The notes under the pieces were generated by a model that saw only the letters and a list, made by a program, of their open reading frames with translations, ran no database searches and had not been told where the DNA came from. The position numbers were made by a program, and so were the translations under genes. Positions 6,999 to 53,431 of a stretch of DNA of 64,000 nt are shown piece after piece (the stretch's first letter is position 1; each line of letters starts with the position of its first letter). The DNA comes from Candidatus Nomurabacteria bacterium (GTDB lineage: Bacteria; Patescibacteriota; Minisyncoccia; Phycocordibacterales; UBA918): positions 326,638 through 390,637 of the forward strand of contig JACKGF010000001.1 in NCBI GenBank assembly GCA_020632095.1, read 5' to 3'.

Positions 6999-8288
6999 TC
7001 ATTCAACAAAGTCTTCGTATAGTTCCTCTTCAGTTAGATTCCTCACCTCTCCATTAGCGCGAGTTACTACTTCAAAAGTACCGGCTTCTTTGGATTTTTT
7101 ACTAACTACTACTCGATACGGAATACCAATTAGATCACTGTCAGCAAACTTCTCTCCCGGCCTGGCTTCTCTATCATCATAGAGAACTTCCACTCCTAGT
7201 TTCTGCAAAGCAGTGTAAACCCCATCAGACCAATCACGAATCTCGTCGTCATCAGTGTTTAGAGCCACTAAGTGAACTTTAAATGGCGCAATACTTTCTG
7301 GCCAAACTATTCCTTTGTCGTCTGCAAATTTTTCCACCACAACCCCCATAACTCTAGTTATACCTATACCATAAGAACCCATCCAAACAGGCACCTTTTC
7401 TCCAGCATCATTTTTGAAAAACAACCCGACCTCCTCTCCCTTCTGTCGACCGAAGTTAAATATATTTCCCACCTCGGCGGTTTTAGTTTCTACTAATTCT
7501 TCTTGCGTTACACCCAATTCTGACAAATCAGTCTTAGCAAGCACTTCTTCATTTATTGCAATTCCTTTTTCGCGATTAATATAGGTAATATCCTCACCAG
7601 CTTCACATACGGTCTGGAACTCGTGACTGAACTCCGTGAATGCCCCACCAGCTGCAAAAGTTACAAAAGTGTCTCCTCCGATTCCAAGTCGATTAAAGAC
7701 ATTTGTATACGCAACTTTGCTAGCTTCATACATTTCTTCATGTTGCTCTTCAGTCTCGGCAAAAGAATACATATCCTTCATAAGAAACTCACGACCACGC
7801 ATAATTCCGCTCTTAGCTCGCAATTCATTCCGTAATTTATTTTGGAATTGATAAATCATTGTTGGTAGATCTTTATAACTAGAAATATGATTTATCATCA
7901 TATTTGCCAAAGGCTCTTCATGACTCCAACCAAAACCAACCTCTCCACCGGCCTTAAGTTCGCTTTTGAACCAAACATCTACCACCTCGTCGCTCCAACG
8001 ACTAGTACGTTCCCACAAATCTTTACGTTGTAGTGTAGTTGCAAGCATTTCCTGTCCAGAAACATTATTCATTTCTTCACGAACTATTTGCTTAATTTTT
8101 TCAACAACCTTCAAACCCAACGGCAACAGTTGATATACTCCCGCCATTTCTTTATGAATATACCCTGCTCGAATAAGCAACTGAGCATTTTTTGCCTGTT
8201 CGTCAGATGGTGCTTCTTTGAGTGTCTTTGTAAAAAGTCTTGATTGGCGCATGTTTTGTTTAGGATTAAAGAAGTCTAGCAATATCAT
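6999..8288 (-). CDS. proS: prolyl-tRNA synthetase (compact form lacking the bacterial editing insertion)
   Basis: A class II aaRS. RAGYIHKEMAGVYQLLPLGLKV matches the ProS N-terminus. The catalytic core plus C-terminal anticodon-binding region total only about 420 aa. Confidence 0.85.
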   Translation of the reverse strand: MILLDFFNPKQNMRQSRLFTKTLKEAPSDEQAKNAQLLIRAGYIHKEMAGVYQLLPLGLKVVEKIKQIVREEMNNVSGQEMLATTLQRKDLWERTSRWSDEVVDVWFKSELKAGGEVGFGWSHEEPLANMMINHISSYKDLPTMIYQFQNKLRNELRAKSGIMRGREFLMKDMYSFAETEEQHEEMYEASKVAYTNVFNRLGIGGDTFVTFAAGGAFTEFSHEFQTVCEAGEDITYINREKGIAINEEVLAKTDLSELGVTQEELVETKTAEVGNIFNFGRQKGEEVGLFFKNDAGEKVPVWMGSYGIGITRVMGVVVEKFADDKGIVWPESIAPFKVHLVALNTDDDEIRDWSDGVYTALQKLGVEVLYDDREARPGEKFADSDLIGIPYRVVVSKKSKEAGTFEVVTRANGEVRNLTEEELYEDFVE

Positions 8289-9363
8289 TGTAGGTCACTG
8301 CAATCATCAATATCATCAAAAGAGCAAATCCAAGCAAGTTTACTCTACCAGCCCAGACGGGAGGAATGTGGCTACCAGTTACAGCCTCGATAGCCACAAA
8401 GACTAAGCGTCCGCCATCGAGAGCAGGAAAAGGTAACAAATTAATTACTGCGAGATTAAGTGAAATAATTGCGGTAAATGTAAGTAGAGCGGTAATTCCA
8501 TATGCCGCGGCTTCTCCCACCAAACCAACAATCCCAACCGGACCAGCCACTTGAGAAAAATCTGCCTTACCAGTAATAGTTTGTTTTAACAATGAGCCAA
8601 GACCACCAGCAATTCCAGTTAATCCATTATACGTTGAGACGAATCCATCTGAGATTGCAGTGAAGAATGGTTTCCTAACCACCTCAACCAGCGACAACGC
8701 CGCTCCGACTAAATATCTATCTGGATTTTCCTTATCCAAACCTTGTACGGGGGTAATCGAGACCTTTTTATCCTCACCTTTGTAAGTATAAAAAACATTT
8801 ACACTTTCCGGAGCAGCATCTGTCACAAAACGACTAAATTCAGTTGGGGTTGGATTTTCAATTTTATTATTCTCATTCTCAACTGCGTTCACAACTGAAC
8901 CAGCTGGTATAACTGCAGCGGGGCTATCTGGCAAAACATCCATTATAGACAATTCAGCAGCACTAGTTGCATCAGCCTCATCGACCACTGTCGGCAAACC
9001 AATCATGTAGGTAAGACTAAACAAAAACCAAGCAAACAAAATATTCATTGTTACTCCAGCAATTAAAACTAGTGCTTGTGCCCACTTTGGTCTGGCAGCA
9101 AAAGAACGACTAACGTCTATCCCAGACTCTTTCTCCTCGGCCGCATCAGCAAAATTTTCACCCCATATCCGTACGAATCCGCCTATTGGCAAGGCGTTAA
9201 AGGTGTATTCTGTTTCCCCTTTCTTAACGCTAAACAATTTTGGAGGAAAACCAATACCAAACTCATCTACCCGCATGCCGGTTTTTTTAGCCACGATAAA
9301 GTGCCCCCACTCATGAACCAAAACCAAGACAAACAACACTAGTAAAAAAAGTATGACGGACAT
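8266..9363 (-). CDS. rseP: RIP zinc metalloprotease RseP (site-2 protease)
   Basis: It has an HEWGHF (HExxH) motif in the first TM helix, a central PDZ-like region and a C-terminal LDGG motif (NLLPFPALDGG). Confidence 0.85.
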   Translation of the reverse strand: MSVILFLLVLFVLVLVHEWGHFIVAKKTGMRVDEFGIGFPPKLFSVKKGETEYTFNALPIGGFVRIWGENFADAAEEKESGIDVSRSFAARPKWAQALVLIAGVTMNILFAWFLFSLTYMIGLPTVVDEADATSAAELSIMDVLPDSPAAVIPAGSVVNAVENENNKIENPTPTEFSRFVTDAAPESVNVFYTYKGEDKKVSITPVQGLDKENPDRYLVGAALSLVEVVRKPFFTAISDGFVSTYNGLTGIAGGLGSLLKQTITGKADFSQVAGPVGIVGLVGEAAAYGITALLTFTAIISLNLAVINLLPFPALDGGRLVFVAIEAVTGSHIPPVWAGRVNLLGFALLMILMIAVTYNDIARLL

Positions 9364-9371
9364 ATATTATT

Positions 9372-9914
9372 TTATTTATTCAACTCAGCTTCCTTACCTG
9401 TAAACAATTCCTCTAAAGACCGGTTAGCATCATCAACAGCTGACTGCACCCCTTCTCTTTGTGAAAACTTCTCATCTTCACCAATATCACCATCCTTCTC
9501 GGACTTATCAATTGCTTTCATTGCTTCATCACGTACTGCCCGCACCGAAATTCGTGCATCTTCTAGCTTACTCTTTGCTAATTTAAGTAACTGTACCCTA
9601 CGCTCCGAAGTGAGTTCTGGAAATATTACCCGTAATCCTGAAGAGTCAGTCACGATTGATACTCCTAGATCCGACTCGCGAACAGCTCGTTCTAAAGCCG
9701 CGATCTGTGAATTATCCCAGACTGAAATTCGCAAAGTCCGAGCGTCTTCCACCCCAATACTTCCAACTTGATTAATTGACATGAATGAACCATAGCTTTC
9801 AACCTTAACACTATCAAGCAGAGCGGGGTTAGCCTGGCCAGTCCGAATACTTGAATATTCCTTTTGTAACCATTCTTTAACCTCGTGTAATTTTTGTTTG
9901 ATGTCATTATCCAT
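9372..9914 (-). CDS. frr: ribosome recycling factor
   Basis: 180 aa with RTGQANPALLDSVKVESYG...LRISVWDNS and other typical Frr segments. Confidence 0.9.
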   Translation of the reverse strand: MDNDIKQKLHEVKEWLQKEYSSIRTGQANPALLDSVKVESYGSFMSINQVGSIGVEDARTLRISVWDNSQIAALERAVRESDLGVSIVTDSSGLRVIFPELTSERRVQLLKLAKSKLEDARISVRAVRDEAMKAIDKSEKDGDIGEDEKFSQREGVQSAVDDANRSLEELFTGKEAELNK

Positions 9915-46630: not shown

Positions 46631-47047
46631 TTACTTATCTAACCTTGATGAGCCGAGCAGACGGCGTTCGACCGATTGACCGACGATTGCTATCAGTAAA
46701 CCAAAGAGTAATAAGCTAGTGAACTGAATACCAACAACCAAAAGTTTGGCTGAGACTGACAGTTCAACATTACCAATACCACCACCAAGCAAGGCCATTG
46801 TAACCCACAAGATAGATGACGGAATATCTTTGAAAAATAAGTTTGTATCGCCCTCTACTTGATAGAGTAAACTACCAAATGCTACAACAGCAATAAACAG
46901 AATGATCAAATAAATTTTAATTGATATACTCCTCACCTCCTCCACCTTATTACTATTTCCGTTGGCAAATTTGCTTATTCGCGCTAGTTTAGCCAGTCGC
47001 GACATTCTGAGAAATTGGAGCAGGCGCAATATGCGAGAAGCCTTCAA
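46631..47047 (-). CDS. voltage-gated ion-channel-like fragment (S4-S5-pore-S6 only; no ATG start, probably 5'-truncated)
   Basis: It begins with an S4-like segment (RILRLLQFLRMSRLAKLARISK), then two TM helices flank a pore-like loop (TMALLGGGIGNV). The reported M is a TTG codon. The frame stays open upstream into the adjacent MITE-like element. Confidence 0.4.
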   Translation of the reverse strand: MKASRILRLLQFLRMSRLAKLARISKFANGNSNKVEEVRSISIKIYLIILFIAVVAFGSLLYQVEGDTNLFFKDIPSSILWVTMALLGGGIGNVELSVSAKLLVVGIQFTSLLLFGLLIAIVGQSVERRLLGSSRLDK

Positions 47048-47065
47048 GAAAGTGAGATTGAGGTA

Positions 47066-47173
47066 ATGGGGATACGTCCGTTATTTATGCATTTTGTGTG
47101 TTCTAATATTAGCTAAATTCCATTATAAAATTACAACACAGATTCTGGCATTATAACGGACGCCTCCCCATTC
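47066..47173. mobile_element. MITE-like element copy A (about 108 bp, 20-bp terminal inverted repeats)
   Basis: TIRs are AATGGGGATACGTCCGTTAT ... ATAACGGACGCCTCCCCATT. The AT-rich core is identical to the copy at 52123-52236. Confidence 0.6.
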
Positions 47174-47302
47174 ACCTTAATTTGCTCCGCGTGCTGGACG
47201 AGTTTCGAACCTTTGATTGAGCGAGATTAGAAAATGAGTTGCAGTATTTTGAGCTTGTAAAGAATTAGGCCTGGCGGGAGTGCCGCCAGGCCAGAGTGCT
47301 AC

Positions 47303-47812
47303 TTACGCAGCAAGAAGTTCGTCGTAGTCCTTGCTGAGCAAAAATGAGAGGGCTTCCACCCAAAGAGTTGCTTTTGCGAGGTCTTGTGCGATGCGCTTTA
47401 CTCCGCGCGCACCAGGAGGAGTCCAGAACTTATTTGCTCCGAGAGGATATCTTGCTTCATAGAAAGAAAAAATTCCCTCGCTCATCCCGTTTCTACCCCC
47501 GACGTCAAGAATGTCGCATACGGTATTCCACTCAAACCCTTCACGGGTATGGTTGAACACCACAGCCCCTACGACCATACCGATGTCCCAGTTGACTTTA
47601 CGGAGGTGGTCAAGATGCTTCCCTCCAAGCCAACCAGTAATGGCTGCATCCTCGACAATCGGCCAGCTCCATTTGTGGCAACCAGCACAGACGAGGTAGA
47701 AGTCTTTTTCTCGGTTGAGGTGAACGTGCGATTTTAATTCCGAGAACGTACGAAATTCTTCTTCAAAGGTCATTTCAAGCTCCTTACAGTTAGGAGTTAT
47801 GTGAAGCCACAA
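47303..47812 (-). CDS. hypothetical protein
   Basis: 169-aa ORF with no recognised family. A likelier start is MTFEEEF. Confidence 0.4.
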   Translation of the reverse strand: MWLHITPNCKELEMTFEEEFRTFSELKSHVHLNREKDFYLVCAGCHKWSWPIVEDAAITGWLGGKHLDHLRKVNWDIGMVVGAVVFNHTREGFEWNTVCDILDVGGRNGMSEGIFSFYEARYPLGANKFWTPPGARGVKRIAQDLAKATLWVEALSFLLSKDYDELLAA

Positions 47813-47902
47813 TTAGCAACACAAAATAATGATACCATAGTAATACTACTGCGTCAAGTAATGCTCCGGTAGATTCAATCTTGAAGTGCAACACCCGTAA
47901 GT

Positions 47903-48556
47903 TCATAGAACAAAGAATGTTCCAGCTTGATGTATCTTGTGCCAACGTTCGTAATCAAGATACCCTTTGTCCATGACGTAGTACGCACCACGCTCGAACG
48001 TAATCTCATCTAGGAAATTCACGTCGTTCACTCTGCCTTCAGTGATAGTGAAAAACGCAGGAATAGAGCCATTTAAATCAAGTTGCATGTTCAGCTTAAT
48101 CGAAGAATGTTGAGCATCGAACCGGGCCCAGCCGAACAGACTTAAACACAAATCTATCACCGTTGAGTCTAGCAGATAGACTGTCGCATCTAAATCAAGC
48201 TCAATGATTTCTTTTGACTTTGGATCCATTGGTCTGGCTCTGGCAATGAGCACCATCGCTAGGTCTCGGTAGATTCTCCAGTCTCTTTTCTGGTTGGCTG
48301 AGGCCAAGGTGTTGCGGGCGATTTTTTGTCTAAAGCCAAGGTGATACAACTTTTCTTCGTGAGCACCCAGACAGGTGATAATATCGCGAAGACTTTCCCG
48401 GTATGCCAGCTGACCGAAGATCATGGCTGTGAATTGTTGTCGGCAAGATAATTTTCGAATGCGGTACTCACCATTATATCTCTCCACACATTTTCTAAAC
48501 TCATAATCATCGACAAACTCCATAATTTGAGAAAACACGTAGACACCTCGATTCAT
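47903..48556 (-). pseudogene. IS4-family (DDE_Tnp_1) transposase, N-terminal fragment only
   Basis: FSQIMEFVDDYEFRKCVERYNGEYRIRKLSCRQQFTAMIFGQLAYRESLRDII...LDSTVIDLCLSLFGWARF...YVMDKGYLDYERW matches the N-terminal half of IS4/ISH8-type transposases. The ORF stops after 217 aa. No C-terminal continuation or inverted repeats were found. Confidence 0.65.
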
Positions 48557-49153
48557 AATGATAGATTAAGTCTGATAAACTCAATCTATTATTACTGAAA
48601 AAACTGGTTTTGGATTGAAATCGAAAAAACCTAATTATACAAATGATACTTATAAATTAAGGGTTGTTTGAGATTTTGGGAAGTTAAACGGGACACTAGT
48701 GGGACAGGGACAATATTTTATTGATTTTTGTGGTGTGATTTTTTCTTCCAGTAGCAGGAGTTTCTCGGCTTACACCGCAGTACAGGTTGTCGATATTTTC
48801 GCTTCCTGCGGTCGCAAAATACCTGACCAACCTCTACGAATCCTGATAAAAGCTCTCCCAGAGCTTGCTCTGGCGGCAGGAATTCTCGCCTTACAGGCGC
48901 AGTACCCCAATTGGATATTTTATTTCCTTTCAGTCATAAAATACCTCAATCGGGTTTCGAATCCTGACGTAACAGTCCCCCGGACTTTTACTCCGCCGGA
49001 GCATTAAAAACAAAGCCACGCCCAAAGGCGTGACTAAGTTTTTATATGCTCGCTTGGAGGGACAGTTTTCGAACTTTCGATTGGGCAGGTATATACTCAG
49101 ATTTTGACTTCCACCTTAAGTGTATAAATCGTTTAGTAGCTATTGCTCGATAA

Positions 49154-50497
49154 CTAGTAAACCCTTTCCATATCAGCTCCGTCAGAGGAAATAGTCTGAG
49201 CTTTACCATCTTTTACTTTTTTGAATGTAATTACTTCTCCAGGTGTGCCAAAGCCAATCTTGTCTTGGTTTTTGAATGAGTGCTGTTTTACTTTTTTATA
49301 TTTAGACCAAGCCTGTACAGGATTAGATGCTGAAGCTCCAAACCCCACCAAATCATCTCCCGTACTTACAATAACCATGTCACCCCATCGATTGCGGTAC
49401 ATGCCTGAGTATGGCTCATTAGGAATAGACTTTATATCCTTTGAATCTTTGAGGTCATAAATCAACCTCATTAGGTTATCACTAACAGCTCCAGCAGTAT
49501 TTGACTGCGTATTTGTAAGGACAATTACTTGGACATTATCTTCAATATGGCTAATGGCATTAGTTACATACCCAGCAAAACCTCCTGAGTGTCCGTACGT
49601 TTGTTGACCTGTGACAGTTTCGATACAAAGTCCTAATCCATACATTTCGTCTTTACTAACAATACTCTGCACCTGTCGCATTGCTTTTCGAGACTCTCTA
49701 TTAAGCACACTCTTCTTACTATCAGGATGTAAGGATGATAAGAACAAAGCCAAGTCTTGCACATTTGAAATAAATCCAGTTGCAGGAGCATAGGTATTTG
49801 TTTTAATGTTCGGCTCTTTTTGTCGATCTATCACATCTGGTGTCCAGCGTTCATACCCTCTAGTTAGTTTTGCTGGTATCTTATCCGGTAAATCTGGAAG
49901 AGTATTTTTTAATCCGAGTGGTTTGGTGATATTTTCAGTGACATATTTATCATAAGAGTCACCAGATACTTTCTCTATAACAGCTCCAAGTATGGAGTAC
50001 CCATGATTTGAGTACTTCATGGTCGTAGCATTATCAAACACAATTGCTTTTGAAGAGACCGTACCCTCAAGCTTAGTTGGAAACTTATCATTTACCCATT
50101 GCTGTGCATCACCATCTCGGAAGAGTCCAGCATTGTGCGAGAGTAGCTGCCGGATAGTGATGTTAGAAAGATTAGTTTCTTTAGTCTTACCCTTAAACCA
50201 AGATAAATAATCAGAGACTTTATCATCGAGTCGAAGTTTACCTTTTTCTTGGAGTTGCATAATGCTTACCGCTGTAAACATTTTAGACATCGATGCAACT
50301 CGAAATTGGGCATCTGTCTTCATCTCTATATCTTTTCCAATATCGGATAGACCAAATGCGCTAACATATTTAGGTACACCATTTACTGCAATACACACCA
50401 CTGCGCCAGGCGTATGGTCATAACGGATTTTCATTGGTAGCCAGTTATCTACAATTTTCCCCGCAACTTTGATTGCTTCAGTTAATTCTTTTTTCAT
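49154..50497 (-). CDS. serine hydrolase of the beta-lactamase/transpeptidase superfamily (class C-like)
   Basis: SxxK (ASMSKMF), YxN (YSNHGY) and HSG (GHSGGFAGY) motifs are present in the correct order. The protein is 447 aa. Confidence 0.7.
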   Translation of the reverse strand: MKKELTEAIKVAGKIVDNWLPMKIRYDHTPGAVVCIAVNGVPKYVSAFGLSDIGKDIEMKTDAQFRVASMSKMFTAVSIMQLQEKGKLRLDDKVSDYLSWFKGKTKETNLSNITIRQLLSHNAGLFRDGDAQQWVNDKFPTKLEGTVSSKAIVFDNATTMKYSNHGYSILGAVIEKVSGDSYDKYVTENITKPLGLKNTLPDLPDKIPAKLTRGYERWTPDVIDRQKEPNIKTNTYAPATGFISNVQDLALFLSSLHPDSKKSVLNRESRKAMRQVQSIVSKDEMYGLGLCIETVTGQQTYGHSGGFAGYVTNAISHIEDNVQVIVLTNTQSNTAGAVSDNLMRLIYDLKDSKDIKSIPNEPYSGMYRNRWGDMVIVSTGDDLVGFGASASNPVQAWSKYKKVKQHSFKNQDKIGFGTPGEVITFKKVKDGKAQTISSDGADMERVY

Positions 50498-50500
50498 AAT

Positions 50501-50824
50501 TTATTCAAAATCTAATAATGGAAACACATCCAAAGCTACTTCTTCGTATGGGTGATTATCTTTCAGAACCTGCTTTAGTAGTGGAAGTTGGTCCTTGGTA
50601 CAAACAAACTCAATCACTACCTCATCTACTTCTTCTAGTTTACCAGCTTCTCCAATATGAGGATTAGCTTCAACATTTGGCATAAAATAGCCCTTTCCTT
50701 TAGTCACAAAGCTACAGTGGCTATAGTTGCCTATTTTTCCTATTCCTGCGTCACCTATAGCCATTCTGACCCTTTCGGAGGCGTCTTCTGGACAGGTTAG
50801 CCATACTTTTACTCGTTCTTGCAT
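50501..50824 (-). CDS. small protein resembling the NIF3/YqfO metal-binding insert domain (tentative)
   Basis: 107 aa. DAGIGKIGNYSHCSF...HPYEEVALDV resembles the HPYEEPA-containing region of NIF3-family proteins. Confidence 0.4.
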   Translation of the reverse strand: MQERVKVWLTCPEDASERVRMAIGDAGIGKIGNYSHCSFVTKGKGYFMPNVEANPHIGEAGKLEEVDEVVIEFVCTKDQLPLLKQVLKDNHPYEEVALDVFPLLDFE

Positions 50825-51254
50825 AGTAGGCAGTATATCAAAAAATCTTCACTTTAATGACATTTAGTTTGTAACTACAGAAAAAGAAATACTCGAAATA
50901 AACTCGAAAAAGTGTTAAATCCAGTCGACAAACTGTTTGTTTTAACTTTTAGTCTGTAACAACTTAAATTTAAAAAACGAGAGAGATAACCTGAGAACAT
51001 GCATTTTCATGTCGACAAGGTATGTTCACTTAGGTTTAAAACTCTGGCTAGGAGTTGATCTATGGCTGGTGAAGCAAGGTCTATGAATTAAAGATACCCT
51101 TAAGACTCTGCATGGGTAACGTAGTAACTGCGTTTTTCATACGTATCCTTTCTTATGAGTTTTTTGAACACCCAGTTCAAACTGAGACGTGTGAAGTAAA
51201 CAGTTTTTAATAAGAGAAGTCAACCAAAAGATCGAATCCTCTCGGAGGTACATA

Positions 51255-51283
51255 GAAAAAAGCACTATAAATAGTGCTTTTTT
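51255..51283. terminator. terminator-like hairpin inside a 550-bp noncoding gap
   Basis: AAAAAAGCACTAT-aa-ATAGTGCTTTTTT could act in either direction. It is immediately followed by a tRNA-3'-end-like remnant (…GGTTCGAACGTCC…CGGAGCAA on the minus strand). Confidence 0.4.
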
Positions 51284-51375
51284 CGTTGCTCCGCTGGGTG
51301 AAGGACGTTCGAACCGCTAGTTTTTAGTATATTTTATTTTCACAGGTCTGATTATTAAAGTATACTAGTTAGATT

Positions 51376-51855
51376 ATGGGCATCCTCTCGAGACATAAGC
51401 AAGAAATGGCGAAGGCTGAAATATTATACAAGGATGTAAAGTTTGTGTTTTGTCCTTACTTTAAAAATAATGTTACCTTTAATTCTGACGGATTTCACCA
51501 TTTGAGATACAATGGATCTGGTAGTGAACGTGAAAAAATATCTCAAATGAATAAATTCGCTTTATTACCTAAGGCGATTGAGATTATTAGCAAATCAGGT
51601 ACTTTGCAGCAATACCGAAAACAGTGGGGAGCGGTCGGTCGAAAAAGGAACTCTGATGGCTCAAGACCAATGAAAGAAATGGAGTATTTTGCATTTGAAG
51701 GAATTCTTGGGACTGGTGCAAATATGCTCCGGGTAAAAGCAATTGTTCGGCGTGCAGGTAATGGGGAGCCACATTTTTGGAGTGTTATGTCAGATGTGAA
51801 TCTTAGAAGAAAATCATCATACAAGCTTGCTTCAGACGATATCATTGATGAGTAA
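51376..51855 (+). CDS. hypothetical protein
   Basis: 159-aa ORF followed by a clear terminator. No family recognised. Confidence 0.45.
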   Translation: MGILSRHKQEMAKAEILYKDVKFVFCPYFKNNVTFNSDGFHHLRYNGSGSEREKISQMNKFALLPKAIEIISKSGTLQQYRKQWGAVGRKRNSDGSRPMKEMEYFAFEGILGTGANMLRVKAIVRRAGNGEPHFWSVMSDVNLRRKSSYKLASDDIIDE

Positions 51856-51863
51856 TAAAAAAG

Positions 51864-51886
51864 TCCCTCAAGAGAGGGATTTTTTT
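51864..51886 (+). terminator. rho-independent terminator of 51376..51855
   Basis: TCCCTC-aaga-GAGGGA followed by a run of seven T. Confidence 0.65.
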
Positions 51887-52037
51887 ATATGCCTGCCTTC
51901 AGCTTACAGAATATGTTGGCTGAACGGGGCTTTCGCCCACAGGCATATCTAAACTTTATACTAGGTGCTTATAAATTGCAAGAATTTTTGCTGAATTATA
52001 ATTAAAAAACAACTTAGGTTCGAACTCGTCCTATCAA

Positions 52038-52283
52038 GTAATGGGGATACGAAGTAATGGGGATACGGAAGTAATGGGGATACGTCCGTTATTTATGCAT
52101 TTTGTGTGTTCTAATATTAGAAGTAATGGGGATACGTCCGTTATTTATGCATTTTGTGTGTTCTAATATTAGCTAAATTCCATTATAAAATTACAACACA
52201 GATTCTGGCATTATAACGGACGCCTCCCCATTCACCTCTCCCCATTCACCTCCGCCTCCCCATTCACCTCCTCCCCATTCACC
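52038..52283. mobile_element. composite of nested/tandem MITE-like copies (copy B) abutting tRNA-Asn 3' end
   Basis: The left TIR unit gtaatggggatacg occurs four times, one of them attached to a 50-bp partial core. Then comes one full copy (52123-52236) identical to copy A. After it the right-TIR end tccccattcacc is tandemly repeated about four times up to 9 bp from the tRNA. Confidence 0.6.
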
Positions 52284-52291
52284 TTAATTTG

Positions 52292-52363
52292 CTCCGGCGG
52301 CAGGATTCGAACCTGCGACCAATTGATTAACAGTCAACTGCTCTACCGCTGAGCTACACCGGA
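52292..52363 (-). tRNA. tRNA-Asn (anticodon GTT)
   Basis: The minus strand reads TCCGGTG-TA-GCTC-AGCGGTA-GAGC-A-GTTGA-CTGTTAA-TCAAT-TGGTC-GCAGG-TTCGAAT-CCTGC-CGCCGGA-G. It folds as a canonical cloverleaf with anticodon loop CU-GUU-AA and discriminator G. No CCA is encoded. Confidence 0.85.
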
Positions 52364-52567
52364 ATGAAAAGAAAATTAGAATCACCATAGACTCCTTTAA
52401 TTCTTGTTGTGAACGATACAAATACTTTTATATCGAACGTAGCTATACCCCATCTAACAATGATGAAGTAGTGCTATTGTACAGAAAAATTCTGGTAATT
52501 CAACTACACACAATGACAATTATCGGGTATTACTTTACCGACCTAAAATCTCAAGTACAATTGAACT

Positions 52568-53431
52568 ATGCCTGAATTACCAGAAGTAGAAACCGTTAGA
52601 ATGCAGTTAAAGAGCAAGGTGGTTGGTAAAACCATTACTAGCGTGGAGGTTTTTCATGCTAAGAGTGTAAATAATGATGAAACTATTGAAGATAGGTTGG
52701 TCGGGAAAGTAATTGCGGAAATTGACCGAATTGGGAAATTGATGATTTTTTCTTTTGTTAATGAGGATAACTTGTTTTTATTGGCTCATTTGAAGATGAC
52801 GGGGCAGTTTTTTTATTTGGATGAAGGTGGTGAAGCGGTCGGTGGCGGTCACTCAGTGACCGCCACCGACCGCGACCTCCCTGGTCGCCACACCCGCGCC
52901 ACTATCCACTTCACCGACCACTCCGCCCTACACTTCAATGACATGCGAATTTTTGGTTATCTTAAACTCACTGACAAAGCCGGCCGAGACGCTGCCAAAG
53001 CTCGCTTCGGACCCGAACCAATCAATCCCAAATTCGATACTGAATGGTTTTACCAAAAACTAAAAAAGCGAAAAACTCCCATCAAAGCCGCCCTACTCGA
53101 CCAAACCTTTATCGCTGGTTTAGGTAATATTTACGTTGACGAAACACTGTGGCGGGCCAAGGTTCGCCCTACACGCTTGGCCGACAAAGTCACCAAGAAA
53201 GAGGCGGCGGCTATCGCCGCCGCCTCCCGTGATGTCATGAATGAATCCATCAATGTCGGTGGCACCACCTTCCAACATTTCAAAGACACCGGTGGTAAAA
53301 ACGGCAATTTCAAAGACTACCTAAAAGTTTTCGGTCAACAAGGTAAAAAATGCGAACGTTGTGGTGGTACAATCGAAAAAATCCGCTGTGCAGGACGCGG
53401 TACGCATTATTGTCCCAGTTGTCAGAAGTAG
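52568..53431 (+). CDS. mutM: formamidopyrimidine-DNA glycosylase
   Basis: N-terminal MPELPEVE, an H2TH region and a C-terminal zinc finger (CERCGGTIEKIRCAGRGTHYCPSCQ) are present. Confidence 0.9.
   Translation: MPELPEVETVRMQLKSKVVGKTITSVEVFHAKSVNNDETIEDRLVGKVIAEIDRIGKLMIFSFVNEDNLFLLAHLKMTGQFFYLDEGGEAVGGGHSVTATDRDLPGRHTRATIHFTDHSALHFNDMRIFGYLKLTDKAGRDAAKARFGPEPINPKFDTEWFYQKLKKRKTPIKAALLDQTFIAGLGNIYVDETLWRAKVRPTRLADKVTKKEAAAIAAASRDVMNESINVGGTTFQHFKDTGGKNGNFKDYLKVFGQQGKKCERCGGTIEKIRCAGRGTHYCPSCQK

What the first reader, a model, noticed from the sequence alone, without database searches (positions are those of the whole stretch)
47060..52365. tRNA-Asn-associated variable segment (about 5 kb) bounded by repeated element copies and degenerate tRNA 3'-end remnants
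An intact tRNA-Asn(GTT) lies at 52292-52363 on the minus strand.

The string ccttaatTTGCTCCG...TTCGAACC, which is the 3' acceptor and T-arm region on the plus strand, recurs in degenerate form at about 47180-47217 (next to MITE copy A) and about 51288-51325 (after a terminator-like hairpin). All three end with CGGAGCA on the minus strand. This is the pattern left by successive integrations at a tRNA gene, each duplicating its 3' end.

The enclosed DNA carries a decayed IS4-family transposase, a beta-lactamase-family serine hydrolase, a Nif3-like miniprotein, two orphan hypothetical proteins and a 550-bp noncoding gap. No integrase survives. It is probably an eroded genomic island.
Basis: partly seen in the sequence, partly recalled or inferred. 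Interest (0 to 1): 0.6.

Follow-up and report, generated by a model that had tools for sequence, protein, structure and literature searches.

The report
Serine-integrase scars beside tRNA-Asn
The 5.1 kb next to the tRNA-Asn gene is the eroded remains of several mobile elements inserted one after another by large serine integrases, and a near-identical strain still carries a live element at exactly this site.

Summary
The tRNA-Asn, both repeat copies and both tRNA-like strings are where stated, and are far beyond chance. The "eroded island built by serial integration" reading is essentially right, but the mechanism differs.

The strings are not decayed copies of the tRNA 3' end. They share only an 8-bp core with it (CGGAGCAA, the last 5 nt of the tRNA plus CAA). 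The rest of each string is an element-borne attP arm, and that arm is also the coding 3' tail of a large serine recombinase (LSR) gene.

- **Live case.** A 99.9%-identical strain has an LSR element inserted exactly at this core. The window is its empty attB.
- **LSR clade.** LSR genes run into tRNA-Asn in two further species. A large LSR clade in candidate phyla radiation (CPR) bacteria shows either tRNA-encoded tails or free tails of the kind these strings encode.
- **More sites.** The segment holds at least four such tails (47182, 48865, 49046, 51286), not two.
- **Repeat element.** The "MITE" belongs to a very widespread hairpin-repeat family unrelated to the strings. Why a copy follows the core at both ends is unresolved.
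- **Limits.** No island-free strain or relative was found, and no integrase domain survives in the window.

It is a new variant of a known kind, of moderate interest.

The parts
52291..52363 (-). tRNA-Asn(GTT), the target gene. Its T arm and acceptor 3' strand (52297-52323) form the B arm of attB.
   Evidence: ARAGORN; Rfam RF00005, 74.1 bits.
52289..52296 (-). Crossover core CGGAGCAA (TTGCTCCG on the + strand): the last 5 nt of the tRNA plus CAA. This is the only block shared by attB, attL and attR of the live element in the sibling strain.
   Evidence: Homology of L001 to the window starts at 52289. L047 follows the window through TTGCTCCG and then diverges.
52036..52288 (.). Repeat-element cluster B plus a 4-7-nt spacer. 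It holds partial end repeats (52036-52084), a half copy (52068-52120), a full hairpin element (52120-52237) and four end repeats (52223-52284). It forms the B' arm of the attB used by the sibling-strain element.
   Evidence: attR in L047 3703-3760.
52017..52035 (-). Fragment 'D': GGACGAGTTCGAACC, a truncated type-A-like arm in inverted orientation, abutting the far end of cluster B. Its origin is unresolved.
   Evidence: The only 0-mismatch hit of GGACGAGTTCGAACC in the window; sequence read.
51376..51855 (+). Orphan ORF (159 aa), cargo of unknown function. Its terminator-like hairpin is at 51864-51879.
   Evidence: No hit in Pfam, PHROGs, NCBIfam or PADLOC. The identical protein is present in 7 contigs.
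51286..51325 (+). Site C: core TTGCTCCG plus a P arm that encodes LLRWVKDVRTASF*. A perfect 14-bp hairpin (51255-51284) precedes it on the + strand.
   Evidence: (D7, I18). The same site type occurs in L007 6881-6931 and L010 8836-8886, and a related one at the far end of the 7.5-kb LSR element in L004.
50501..50824 (-). 107-aa protein, a stand-alone homolog of the insertion domain of Nif3-family proteins (cargo).
   Evidence: PDB 2gx8 residues 160-260, E 8e-25. Pfam gives only a weak CutA1 match.
49154..50497 (-). Beta-lactamase-family serine hydrolase, 447 aa, AmpH/PBP4-like (cargo).
   Evidence: PF00144, E 1e-59; phrog_382, E 6e-63; all NCBIfam matches below their curated cut-offs.
49046..49144 (+). 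Site B: core-like ATGCTCGC plus a P arm that encodes MLAWRDSFRTFDWAGIYSDFDFHLKCINRLVAI. This is a fossil free-form LSR tail. A terminator-like hairpin (49014-49035) lies just before it.
   Evidence: tblastn against the tails of P0111 (E 1.3e-5), P0050 (2e-5) and P0076 (1e-5); motif scan; hairpin.
48740..48970 (+). Site F, decayed, with a still more decayed tandem copy at 48740-48864. TTGCTCtGGCGGCAGGAaTTC (48865-48885) mimics the tRNA-Asn 3' end. It is followed by a frameshifted tail ending ...QSGFES*.
   Evidence: the repeat finder D15, 94% to 52289-52305. The best non-self matches to the tRNA 3' end in the whole window fall here. tblastn to the tail of P0120, E 4.5e-4.
47903..48556 (-). Truncated IS4-family transposase (217 aa; the C-terminal ~130 residues are missing).
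   Evidence: DUF4372 plus DDE_Tnp_1; NF033592 positions 3-203 of 332.
47303..47812 (-). Orphan ORF (156-169 aa). Its terminator-like hairpin is at 47268-47292.
   Evidence: No family hits; hairpin.
47182..47221 (+). Site A, the outermost junction (attR type): core TTGCTCCG plus a P arm that encodes LLRVLDEFRTFD*.
   Evidence: It is 95% identical over 39 nt to L007 7580-7618, which lies in another species and has no MITE.
47060..47181 (.). Repeat-element copy A plus spacer. It lies outside the inserted DNA, in the old tRNA-distal flank (B' arm), directly upstream of the ion-channel gene (46631-47047, minus strand).
   Evidence: It folds as a long hairpin, z -6.9. The repeat number differs between strains (L003, L053).

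Best explanation
Positions 47190-52288 are a tandem stack of remnants of at least four mobile elements. Each was inserted by a large serine recombinase (LSR) at the 3' end of tRNA-Asn.

**Mechanism.**
- The crossover lies inside the 8-bp core CGGAGCAA (shown).
- In the free element, the LSR gene reads through this core into the attP 'P arm', which encodes the last 12-35 residues of the enzyme (shown for homologs, inferred for the fossils).
- After integration, the LSR gene sits next to the tRNA and ends in a tRNA-encoded tail (LLRRQDSNLRPID*). The old tail is left at the far end of the element as an attR junction (shown in the sibling strain).
- Each later integration at the tRNA pushes older junctions outward (inferred).
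- Deletions and an IS4 insertion then removed the integrase genes and most cargo (inferred).

**Result.** What remains is four fossil tails (A, F, B, C), all on the + strand and reading toward the tRNA, plus stray cargo genes and terminators.

**Still active.** The site is an active attB. In the window it is empty; in a 99.9%-identical strain it is occupied.
For: **1. Natural before-and-after pair.**
- L001 is 99.92% identical to the window from 52289 onward. It has a 531-aa LSR (Resolvase plus Recombinase domains; phrog_95, E 1e-74) whose reading frame runs through the core into the tRNA.
- L047, from the same sample, matches the window up to TTGCTCCG and then continues with element DNA.
- attB, attL and attR share only CGGAGCAA.

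**2. Other species.** LSR genes overlap tRNA-Asn in L004 (8048-9742 against tRNA 9730-9802) and in L009 (7963-9576 against 9537-9609). The L004 element ends 7.5 kb away at a site-C-like junction.

**3. C-terminal tails of the top 120 LSR homologs** (at least 3095 hits with E <= 1e-20; the source names given are all CPR groups apart from one Elusimicrobia record):
- at least 44 carry tRNA-encoded tails, and 15 of these end at the stop codon that is the reverse complement of the Asn anticodon loop;
- about 13 carry free-form tails such as LLAWQDAFRTYDW... and LLRIVNDVRTIF...

**4. The window strings encode the same free-form motif.**
- They translate to LLRVLDEFRTFD*, MLAWRDSFRTFDW... and LLRWVKDVRTASF*.
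- The motif occurs nowhere else in the 64 kb and in 0 of 200 shuffles.
- Site B matches homolog tails at E about 1e-5.

**5. Geometry.** TTCGAA lies 9 nt from the core in the tRNA, and TTCGAA or its TTCTAA variant lies 14 nt from it in sites A, C and E. This equals the 5-bp outward shift of the zinc-ribbon-domain motif in attP relative to attB reported for serine integrases (PMC3783163).

**6. Conservation.** The same site types, in the same orientation, lie downstream of tRNA-Asn in L007 (three sites), L010, L012, L013 and L019.

**7. Free form.** L177 shows an attP-state LSR (TTGCTCCG, then 14 nt, then TTAGAACC) on a 36-kb contig with no tRNA within 10 kb.
Against: - No LSR catalytic or recombinase-domain remnant survives in the window, so the fossils are assigned from their tails only.
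- No strain or relative lacking the 5.1 kb was found.
- GC content does not differ from the surroundings.
- Serine integrases are not known to use attL as a target, so how repeated integration at an occupied site happens is unexplained.
- The sequence after the tRNA core equals the sequence after the outermost junction: the spacer ATTAAG plus the repeat element in the window, and a terminator in L007. The simple serial model does not predict this.
- The 5-bp shift rests on one shared hexamer that is also constrained by coding (F/V-R-T). Site F does not show the shift.
Confidence: 0.8

Rival explanations
1. Classical tRNA islands, typically made by tyrosine integrases, integrated one after another. 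Each duplicated the tRNA 3' end, and the copies have since decayed.
For: - Direct repeats at both ends include the tRNA terminus.
- One fragment (48865-48885) really is a near copy of the tRNA 3' end: the repeat finder gives 94% over 17 nt (D15), and 14 of 15 nt match.
- L012 has an exact 27-nt duplicate of the tRNA 3' end 126 nt downstream.
Against: - Sites A, B and C share only 8 bp with the tRNA and have a 5-nt longer geometry that could not have served as a tRNA 3' end.
- They are 90-95% conserved between species whose Fpg proteins are about 72% identical.
- They encode LSR tails.
- No Phage_integrase hit was found in the ORFs scanned or in the gene calls of the sibling-strain element.
Confidence: 0.05
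2. An integron-like cassette array. Small integrase-less units, each ending in a conserved P-arm site, are inserted at tRNA-Asn by an LSR supplied in trans. On this view the segment is not the debris of full elements.
For: - L007 has three units of 0.5-1.1 kb. The second and third each contain one ORF in the tRNA direction. All three units end in a site of type C, A or E.
- Site types recur across species with different cargo.
- Each core is followed by a terminator-like hairpin.
Against: - The sites are the coding tails of LSR genes, so they derive from LSR-bearing elements.
- Cargo orientation in the window is mixed, and an IS remnant shows decay.
- No circular cassette and no trans-acting integrase has been shown.
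- The tail in window site A has acquired a premature stop relative to L007.
Confidence: 0.1
3. The strings are chance similarities, or are parts of the MITE-like repeat, and the segment is ordinary chromosome.
For: Site A abuts repeat copy A, and the tRNA end abuts copy B. GC content is not distinct from the surroundings.
Against: - Sites A and C occur without the repeat in other species.
- The repeat occurs in at least 120 contigs, generally away from tRNA genes.
- Chance is excluded.
- An element demonstrably integrates at this core.
Confidence: 0.02

Closest known systems
Tandem arrays of integrative genetic elements at tRNA and tmRNA genes (Islander/TIGER work; PMC7192596)
   Same: Repeated integration at one conserved RNA gene. 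The core is restored at the element ends. The stacked elements decay and recombine.
   Different: - The integrases here are large serine recombinases. PMC7192596 reports tRNA or tmRNA use for only 14 of 297 (4.9%) serine integrases, and states that such use had not been reported before.
- The repeats are 8 bp, not a copy of the tRNA 3' end.
Phage large serine integrases (A118/LI, phiC31, Bxb1, SPbeta)
   Same: - Resolvase plus Recombinase domain architecture.
- A short crossover core with hybrid attL and attR.
- The attP arm motif lies 5 bp further from the centre than in attB (PMC3783163).
- The integrase gene is adjacent to the att site.
   Different: - The target is a tRNA 3' end rather than a protein-coding gene.
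- attP lies inside the integrase gene's own 3' end, so the protein's C-terminal tail changes on integration.
- No biochemical data exist for this clade.
SSV1-type archaeal integrases (attP inside the int gene; from my own knowledge)
   Same: The attachment site lies within the integrase coding sequence, the target is a tRNA gene, and integration alters the integrase gene.
   Different: - Those are tyrosine recombinases whose gene is split in two.
- Here a serine recombinase only swaps its last 12-35 codons and keeps an intact catalytic body.
Integron cassette arrays and CALINs (clusters of attC sites lacking integron-integrases)
   Same: A one-sided array of small units, each ending in a recombination site, next to a fixed platform. 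Arrays without an adjacent integrase exist.
   Different: - The sites are not attC hairpins.
- There is no IntI or attI.
- The sites are fossil integrase tails.
- Cassette mobility has not been shown.
MITE and REPIN-type hairpin repeats
   Same: The bounding element is about 110 nt long, has 20-25-nt inverted ends, folds as a long hairpin, and is present in very many copies in metagenomes.
   Different: - No direct target-site duplication is seen.
- The ends carry variable runs of partial end copies.
- No autonomous partner or transposase has been identified.

Membership tests
Element integrated by a large serine recombinase | An LSR gene (Resolvase plus Recombinase domains) within the element, next to an att site. 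| tested here: not met
   There is no LSR domain in the window segment (tblastn; Pfam). The feature is met for the live element at the same site in the sibling strain (L001 5884-7479) and in L004 and L009.
Element integrated by a large serine recombinase | attL and attR are hybrids that share only a short core with attB; an empty attB is available for comparison. | tested here: met
   Window (attB) against L001 (attL) and L047 (attR): only CGGAGCAA is common to all three.
Element integrated by a large serine recombinase | The attP half-site carries the outer (zinc-ribbon-domain) motif 5 bp further from the centre than the attB half-site (PMC3783163). | tested here: inconclusive
   TTCGAA lies 9 nt from the core in the tRNA, and TTCGAA or TTCTAA lies 14 nt from it in sites A, C and E. 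The hexamer is also a coding constraint (F/V-R-T), and site F lacks the shift. No binding data exist.
Element integrated by a large serine recombinase | Recombination activity of the enzyme on these sites. | not testable with these tools
   This needs an in vitro or in vivo recombination assay.
Classical tRNA-gene genomic island (tyrosine integrase) | A tyrosine integrase gene or remnant. | tested here: not met
   No Phage_integrase hit in the segment's ORFs that were scanned or among the called genes of L001 and L047. Short pseudogene fragments were not searched exhaustively.
Classical tRNA-gene genomic island (tyrosine integrase) | The flanking direct repeat is a copy of the tRNA 3' end (typically 15 nt or more). 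| tested here: not met
   Sites A, B and C share 7-8 nt with the tRNA terminus. Only the internal fragment at 48865-48885 copies about 20 nt.
Integron-like cassette array | An integrase and primary site adjacent to the array, with cassettes consisting of an ORF plus a site in a uniform orientation. | tested here: not met
   No integrase lies beside the array in the window. ORF orientation is mixed. L007 looks cassette-like, but mobility is untested.
MITE (the bounding repeat) | Terminal inverted repeats and many copies. | tested here: met
   47-50-nt arms at 72% complementarity, with a conserved 20-nt end motif. At least 120 metagenome contigs carry exact end motifs.
MITE (the bounding repeat) | A target-site duplication and a related autonomous element. 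| tested here: not met
   No direct duplication in 54 distinct flank pairs. No transposase with these ends was found. The nearby IS4 remnant was not seen to have similar ends on reading the sequence.

The most novel reading that the evidence does not exclude
The locus is one window onto a very large, apparently undescribed clade of CPR large serine integrases that specifically target the 3' end of tRNA-Asn.

- Their attP arm is the coding 3' tail of the integrase gene itself. Integration therefore swaps the enzyme's last 12-35 residues for a tRNA-encoded tail.
- This swap could act as a built-in switch of activity or directionality.
- The discarded tails pile up as a readable record of past integrations. 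They may even act as sites at which integrase-less single-gene units are mobilised in trans, as the L007 array suggests.
Probability: 0.25. Interest if true: 0.7.

Novelty: new variant of a known kind. Interest (0 to 1): 0.55.

Why it matters
Serine integrases are generally held not to target tRNA genes: PMC7192596 found 4.9% and called for proof. Here a natural empty/occupied pair maps such an integration to an 8-bp core. Homolog tails indicate that a large CPR clade does this routinely.

Three consequences follow:
- **Island detection.** Finders that look for duplicated tRNA 3' ends would miss these islands.
- **A new marker.** The fossil integrase tails give a simple sequence marker for past integrations in CPR genomes, which have few recognised mobile elements.
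- **Candidate tools.** The clade offers att sites of known geometry for new integrase tools.

For the window itself, the practical result is that the beta-lactamase-family gene, the Nif3-domain gene and the two orphan genes are horizontally acquired cargo.

Tried and rejected
- **Viral contig scans.** Scans for site A, site C and the repeat end motif gave 0 hits. A search for LSR relatives there gave one weak locus.
- **Synteny test.** tRNA-Asn next to Fpg is conserved in many relatives, but no relative has the channel or FAD gene, or any island gene, within 10 kb.
- **Island-free strain.** Exact-protein look-ups found the segment in every near-identical strain.
- **Rfam.** It found only the tRNA. 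The microRNA and snoRNA matches are far below their thresholds.
- **Composition.** There is no GC signal.
- **Defence systems.** PADLOC found nothing for the island proteins.
- **Pseudo-tRNA reading.** I first read the strings as T-loop, T-stem and acceptor of some other tRNA, and read 48940-49003 as an inverted pseudo-tRNA. I dropped both readings. The strings are integrase tails, and the plus-strand TTCGAATCC encodes the conserved ...FES* end of one tail class.
- **LSR body fossil.** A longer 'fossil LSR body' at 48902-49045 (the P0076 alignment) is weak and gapped, so I claim only the tails.
- **Central dinucleotide.** Attempts to place it by arm symmetry gave no consistent answer.
- **Repeat element at both ends.** Its target preference could not be established from the flanks, so its presence at both ends is still unexplained.

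Full report
**What is there.**
The window comes from a Patescibacteria (candidate phyla radiation, CPR) genome. Its Fpg protein is 76-77% identical to the closest relatives found, which are Candidatus Nomurabacteria and Paceibacterota genomes assembled from metagenomes.

tRNA-Asn(GTT) lies at 52291-52363 on the minus strand. A palindromic element of about 110 nt occurs as copy A (47060-47177) and copy B (52120-52237), which are 99% identical. Copy B carries an extra half copy and runs of partial end repeats. Both copies are followed by CACCTTAATTTGCTCCG.

The two tRNA-like strings are at 47182-47221 and 51286-51325. All four TTCGAACC octamers in the 64 kb lie within 47204-52313.

The gene content is also as described:
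- a truncated IS4 transposase;
- a beta-lactamase-family hydrolase;
- a stand-alone Nif3 insertion-domain protein (PDB 2gx8, E 8e-25);
- two orphan ORFs with no family hit.

**A natural before-and-after pair.**
Exact-protein look-ups found contigs from near-identical strains.

L001 is 99.92% identical to the window over 11.1 kb, but only from 52289 rightward. To the left of that point it carries a 531-aa large serine recombinase (LSR). The protein has Resolvase and Recombinase domains and matches phrog_95 'integrase' at E 1e-74. Genes upstream include one with a terminase small-subunit (GP3_package) hit. The LSR reading frame runs ...HPS LLR RQDSNLRPID*, so its last 13 codons (LLRRQDSNLRPID) are the reverse complement of the core and the tRNA.

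L047 comes from the same sample. It follows the window from 48514 through repeat B and TTGCTCCG, and then diverges into 3.5 kb of other genes.

The three junctions, written in the tRNA orientation, are:
- attB (window): GCCGC-CGGAGCAA-ATTAAGG, then the repeat element;
- attL (L001): GCCGC-CGGAGCAA-GCTAGGATG;
- attR (L047): TTCTAAATGTATCCAACCAG-CGGAGCAA-ATTAAGG.

The exchange is therefore confined to the 8-bp core CGGAGCAA. An 8-bp overlap cannot produce an assembly chimera, so the window holds a genuine empty site.

**The same arrangement in other species.**
LSR genes overlap the tRNA-Asn 3' end in L004 (complete chromosome CP060229; LSR 8048-9742, tRNA 9730-9802) and in L009 (LSR 7963-9576, tRNA 9537-9609). 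In L004 the element ends 7.5 kb away at ...CGAACGTCGTCCCAAGTT-CGGAGCAG, followed by a hairpin.

**What the strings are.**
The strings are not decayed tRNA ends. TTCGAA lies 9 nt from the core in the tRNA but 14 nt from it in sites A and C, and TTCTAA holds that 14-nt position in the live element's site E.

They are conserved across species whose Fpg proteins are about 72% identical:
- site A is 95% identical over 39 nt to L007 7580-7618;
- site C recurs in L007 and in L010;
- an E-like site lies at L007 8074-8103.
None of these has the repeat element nearby.

Read on the + strand, in the LSR frame, the sites continue the integrase reading frame:
- site A: LLRVLDEFRTFD*
- site C: LLRWVKDVRTASF*
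- site E: LLRWLDTFRTLNWSK...
- site B (49046-49144): MLAWRDSFRTFDWAGIYSDFDFHLKCINRLVAI.

A protein search with the L001 LSR returned at least 3095 homologs at E <= 1e-20. The top 120 are 43-100% identical. The source names given are all CPR groups apart from one Elusimicrobia record. Their C-terminal tails fall into classes:
- at least 44 are tRNA-encoded (LLR[RG]QDSNLRP...);
- 15 of those stop at GAT TAA, the reverse complement of the Asn anticodon loop;
- 53 end at LLR or LLRG;
- about 13 are free-form, such as LLAWQDAFRTYDWAKAI..., LLRIVNDVRTIF..., LLRTWDDVRE... and LLRLLNTIRTSL...

The window strings belong to the free-form class. A pattern built from that motif hits only sites A, B and C in the six-frame translation of the 64 kb, with 0 hits in 200 shuffles. 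Site B aligns to homolog tails at E about 1e-5.

A free-state example is L177. Its LSR ends ...TTGCTCCG, then 14 nt, then TTAGAACC, on a 36-kb contig with no tRNA within 10 kb.

The strings are therefore attP 'P arms', the integrase gene's own 3' tail, left behind as attR junctions.

The 5-nt extra spacing equals the shift of the zinc-ribbon-domain motif between attP and attB described for serine integrases (PMC3783163). I treat this as suggestive only. The hexamer is also constrained by coding, and one site class (F) does not show the shift.

**Anatomy of the segment.**
Going outward from the tRNA:
1. the core (52289-52296);
2. repeat cluster B (52036-52288);
3. an inverted, truncated type-A-like fragment, 'D' (52017-52031);
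4. orphan orf159;
5. site C (51286-51325), with a perfect hairpin beside it;
6. about 430 nt of noncoding DNA, then the Nif3-domain gene and the hydrolase gene;
7. site B (49046-49144), with a terminator-like hairpin (49014-49035);
8. site F (48865-48970), which begins with a near copy of the tRNA 3' end and matches the tail of P0120 at E 4.5e-4, plus a more decayed tandem copy (48740-48864);
9. the IS4 remnant;
10. orphan orf169 and its terminator;
11. site A (47182-47221);
12. repeat A, and then the channel gene.

All four tails read toward the tRNA, as serial integration at one core predicts. No LSR catalytic or recombinase-domain remnant survives. Window site A has a premature stop relative to L007, consistent with decay.

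Further fossil tails in the same orientation lie downstream of tRNA-Asn in L012, L013 and L019. L012 also has an exact 27-nt duplicate of the tRNA end.

**The bounding repeat.**
These fall into sub-families of 85-170-nt hairpin elements, often several per contig. Many are preceded by partial end copies like those in the window, and they are not generally near tRNA genes.

No direct target-site duplication is visible. Copy A folds as a long hairpin (z -6.9).

One thing is not explained: why a copy sits 4-7 nt after the core at both ends, and why the duplication ends exactly at the element's terminus. L007 shows an analogous pattern. The terminator after its tRNA core resembles the one after its site A. 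Possible explanations are:
- targeted insertion of the repeat element;
- gene conversion between the two copies;
- replacement of the tRNA-proximal part of the island by recombination with an unoccupied allele, which would also explain the loss of the integrase genes.

**Limits.**
- No island-free genome was found. Relatives share tRNA-Asn next to Fpg, but they share nothing on the other side of the tRNA.
- All near-identical strains carry the segment.
- GC content is unremarkable.
- How a second element integrates at an occupied site (attL) is unclear for this enzyme class.

**Comparison with the literature, and novelty.**
Tandem arrays of integrative elements at tRNA genes are well known (PMC7192596). 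That paper also states that serine integrases had not been known to target tRNA genes, and found only 14 of 297 cases. My literature searches found no description of CPR serine integrases at tRNA genes.

I rate this a new variant of a known kind. It is an ordinary eroded island in outline. The unusual parts are the integrase class, an attP embedded in the integrase's own coding tail, and an 8-bp core instead of a duplicated tRNA end.

Noticed in passing
window 47060-47177 and 52036-52284; loci L057-L176: The end motif AATGGGGAnnCGTCCGTTAT of the bounding repeat is found exactly in at least 120 metagenome contigs from many environments. It defines several sub-families of 85-170-nt hairpin elements. 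Many of the copies listed are preceded by variable runs of partial end copies. L103 carries four elements in 2.3 kb. The autonomous partner and mechanism are unknown.
   Followed up: partly
window 47122-47151 and 52182-52211 (minus strand): Each repeat copy contains a promoter-like site (ATGCCA, 18 nt, TATAAT; 10 of 12 matches). The one in copy A points at the ion-channel gene that starts about 75-115 nt downstream, so the repeat may drive that gene.
   Followed up: no
P0001-P0120 (homologs of L001 5884-7479): A very large LSR clade, at least 3095 hits at E <= 1e-20; the source names given are all CPR groups apart from one Elusimicrobia record. Its members end either in tRNA-encoded tails or in free-form tails. 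53 of the top 120 stop right at LLR or LLRG, possibly through gene-call truncation at the tRNA boundary.
   Followed up: partly
L007 5777-8103: In this relative, tRNA-Asn is inverted relative to Fpg. It is followed by three units of 0.5-1.1 kb, which end in sites of type C, A and E. The layout resembles a cassette array.
   Followed up: partly
L003 96-312, L053 861-1040, L047 3520-3720, compared with the window: The number of terminal partial repeats of the hairpin element differs between near-identical strains and between the two copies (1, 4 or 5 on the core side). This implies rapid slippage or conversion.
   Followed up: no
L179 10001-11728: An LSR with a free-form (attP-state) tail sits on a 116-kb contig among housekeeping genes (dnaK, dnaJ, grpE), 5 kb from a tRNA-Lys. 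It may be an internal junction of an array or a domesticated copy.
   Followed up: no
window 52835-52873: A perfect 19-bp inverted repeat with a 1-nt loop lies inside the fpg coding sequence, in a locally GC-rich stretch.
   Followed up: no
L047 3813-4718: The far end of the live element encodes a 301-aa protein with an N-terminal SEC-C zinc motif. It gives only short, weak PADLOC 'E2' matches over that motif.
   Followed up: no
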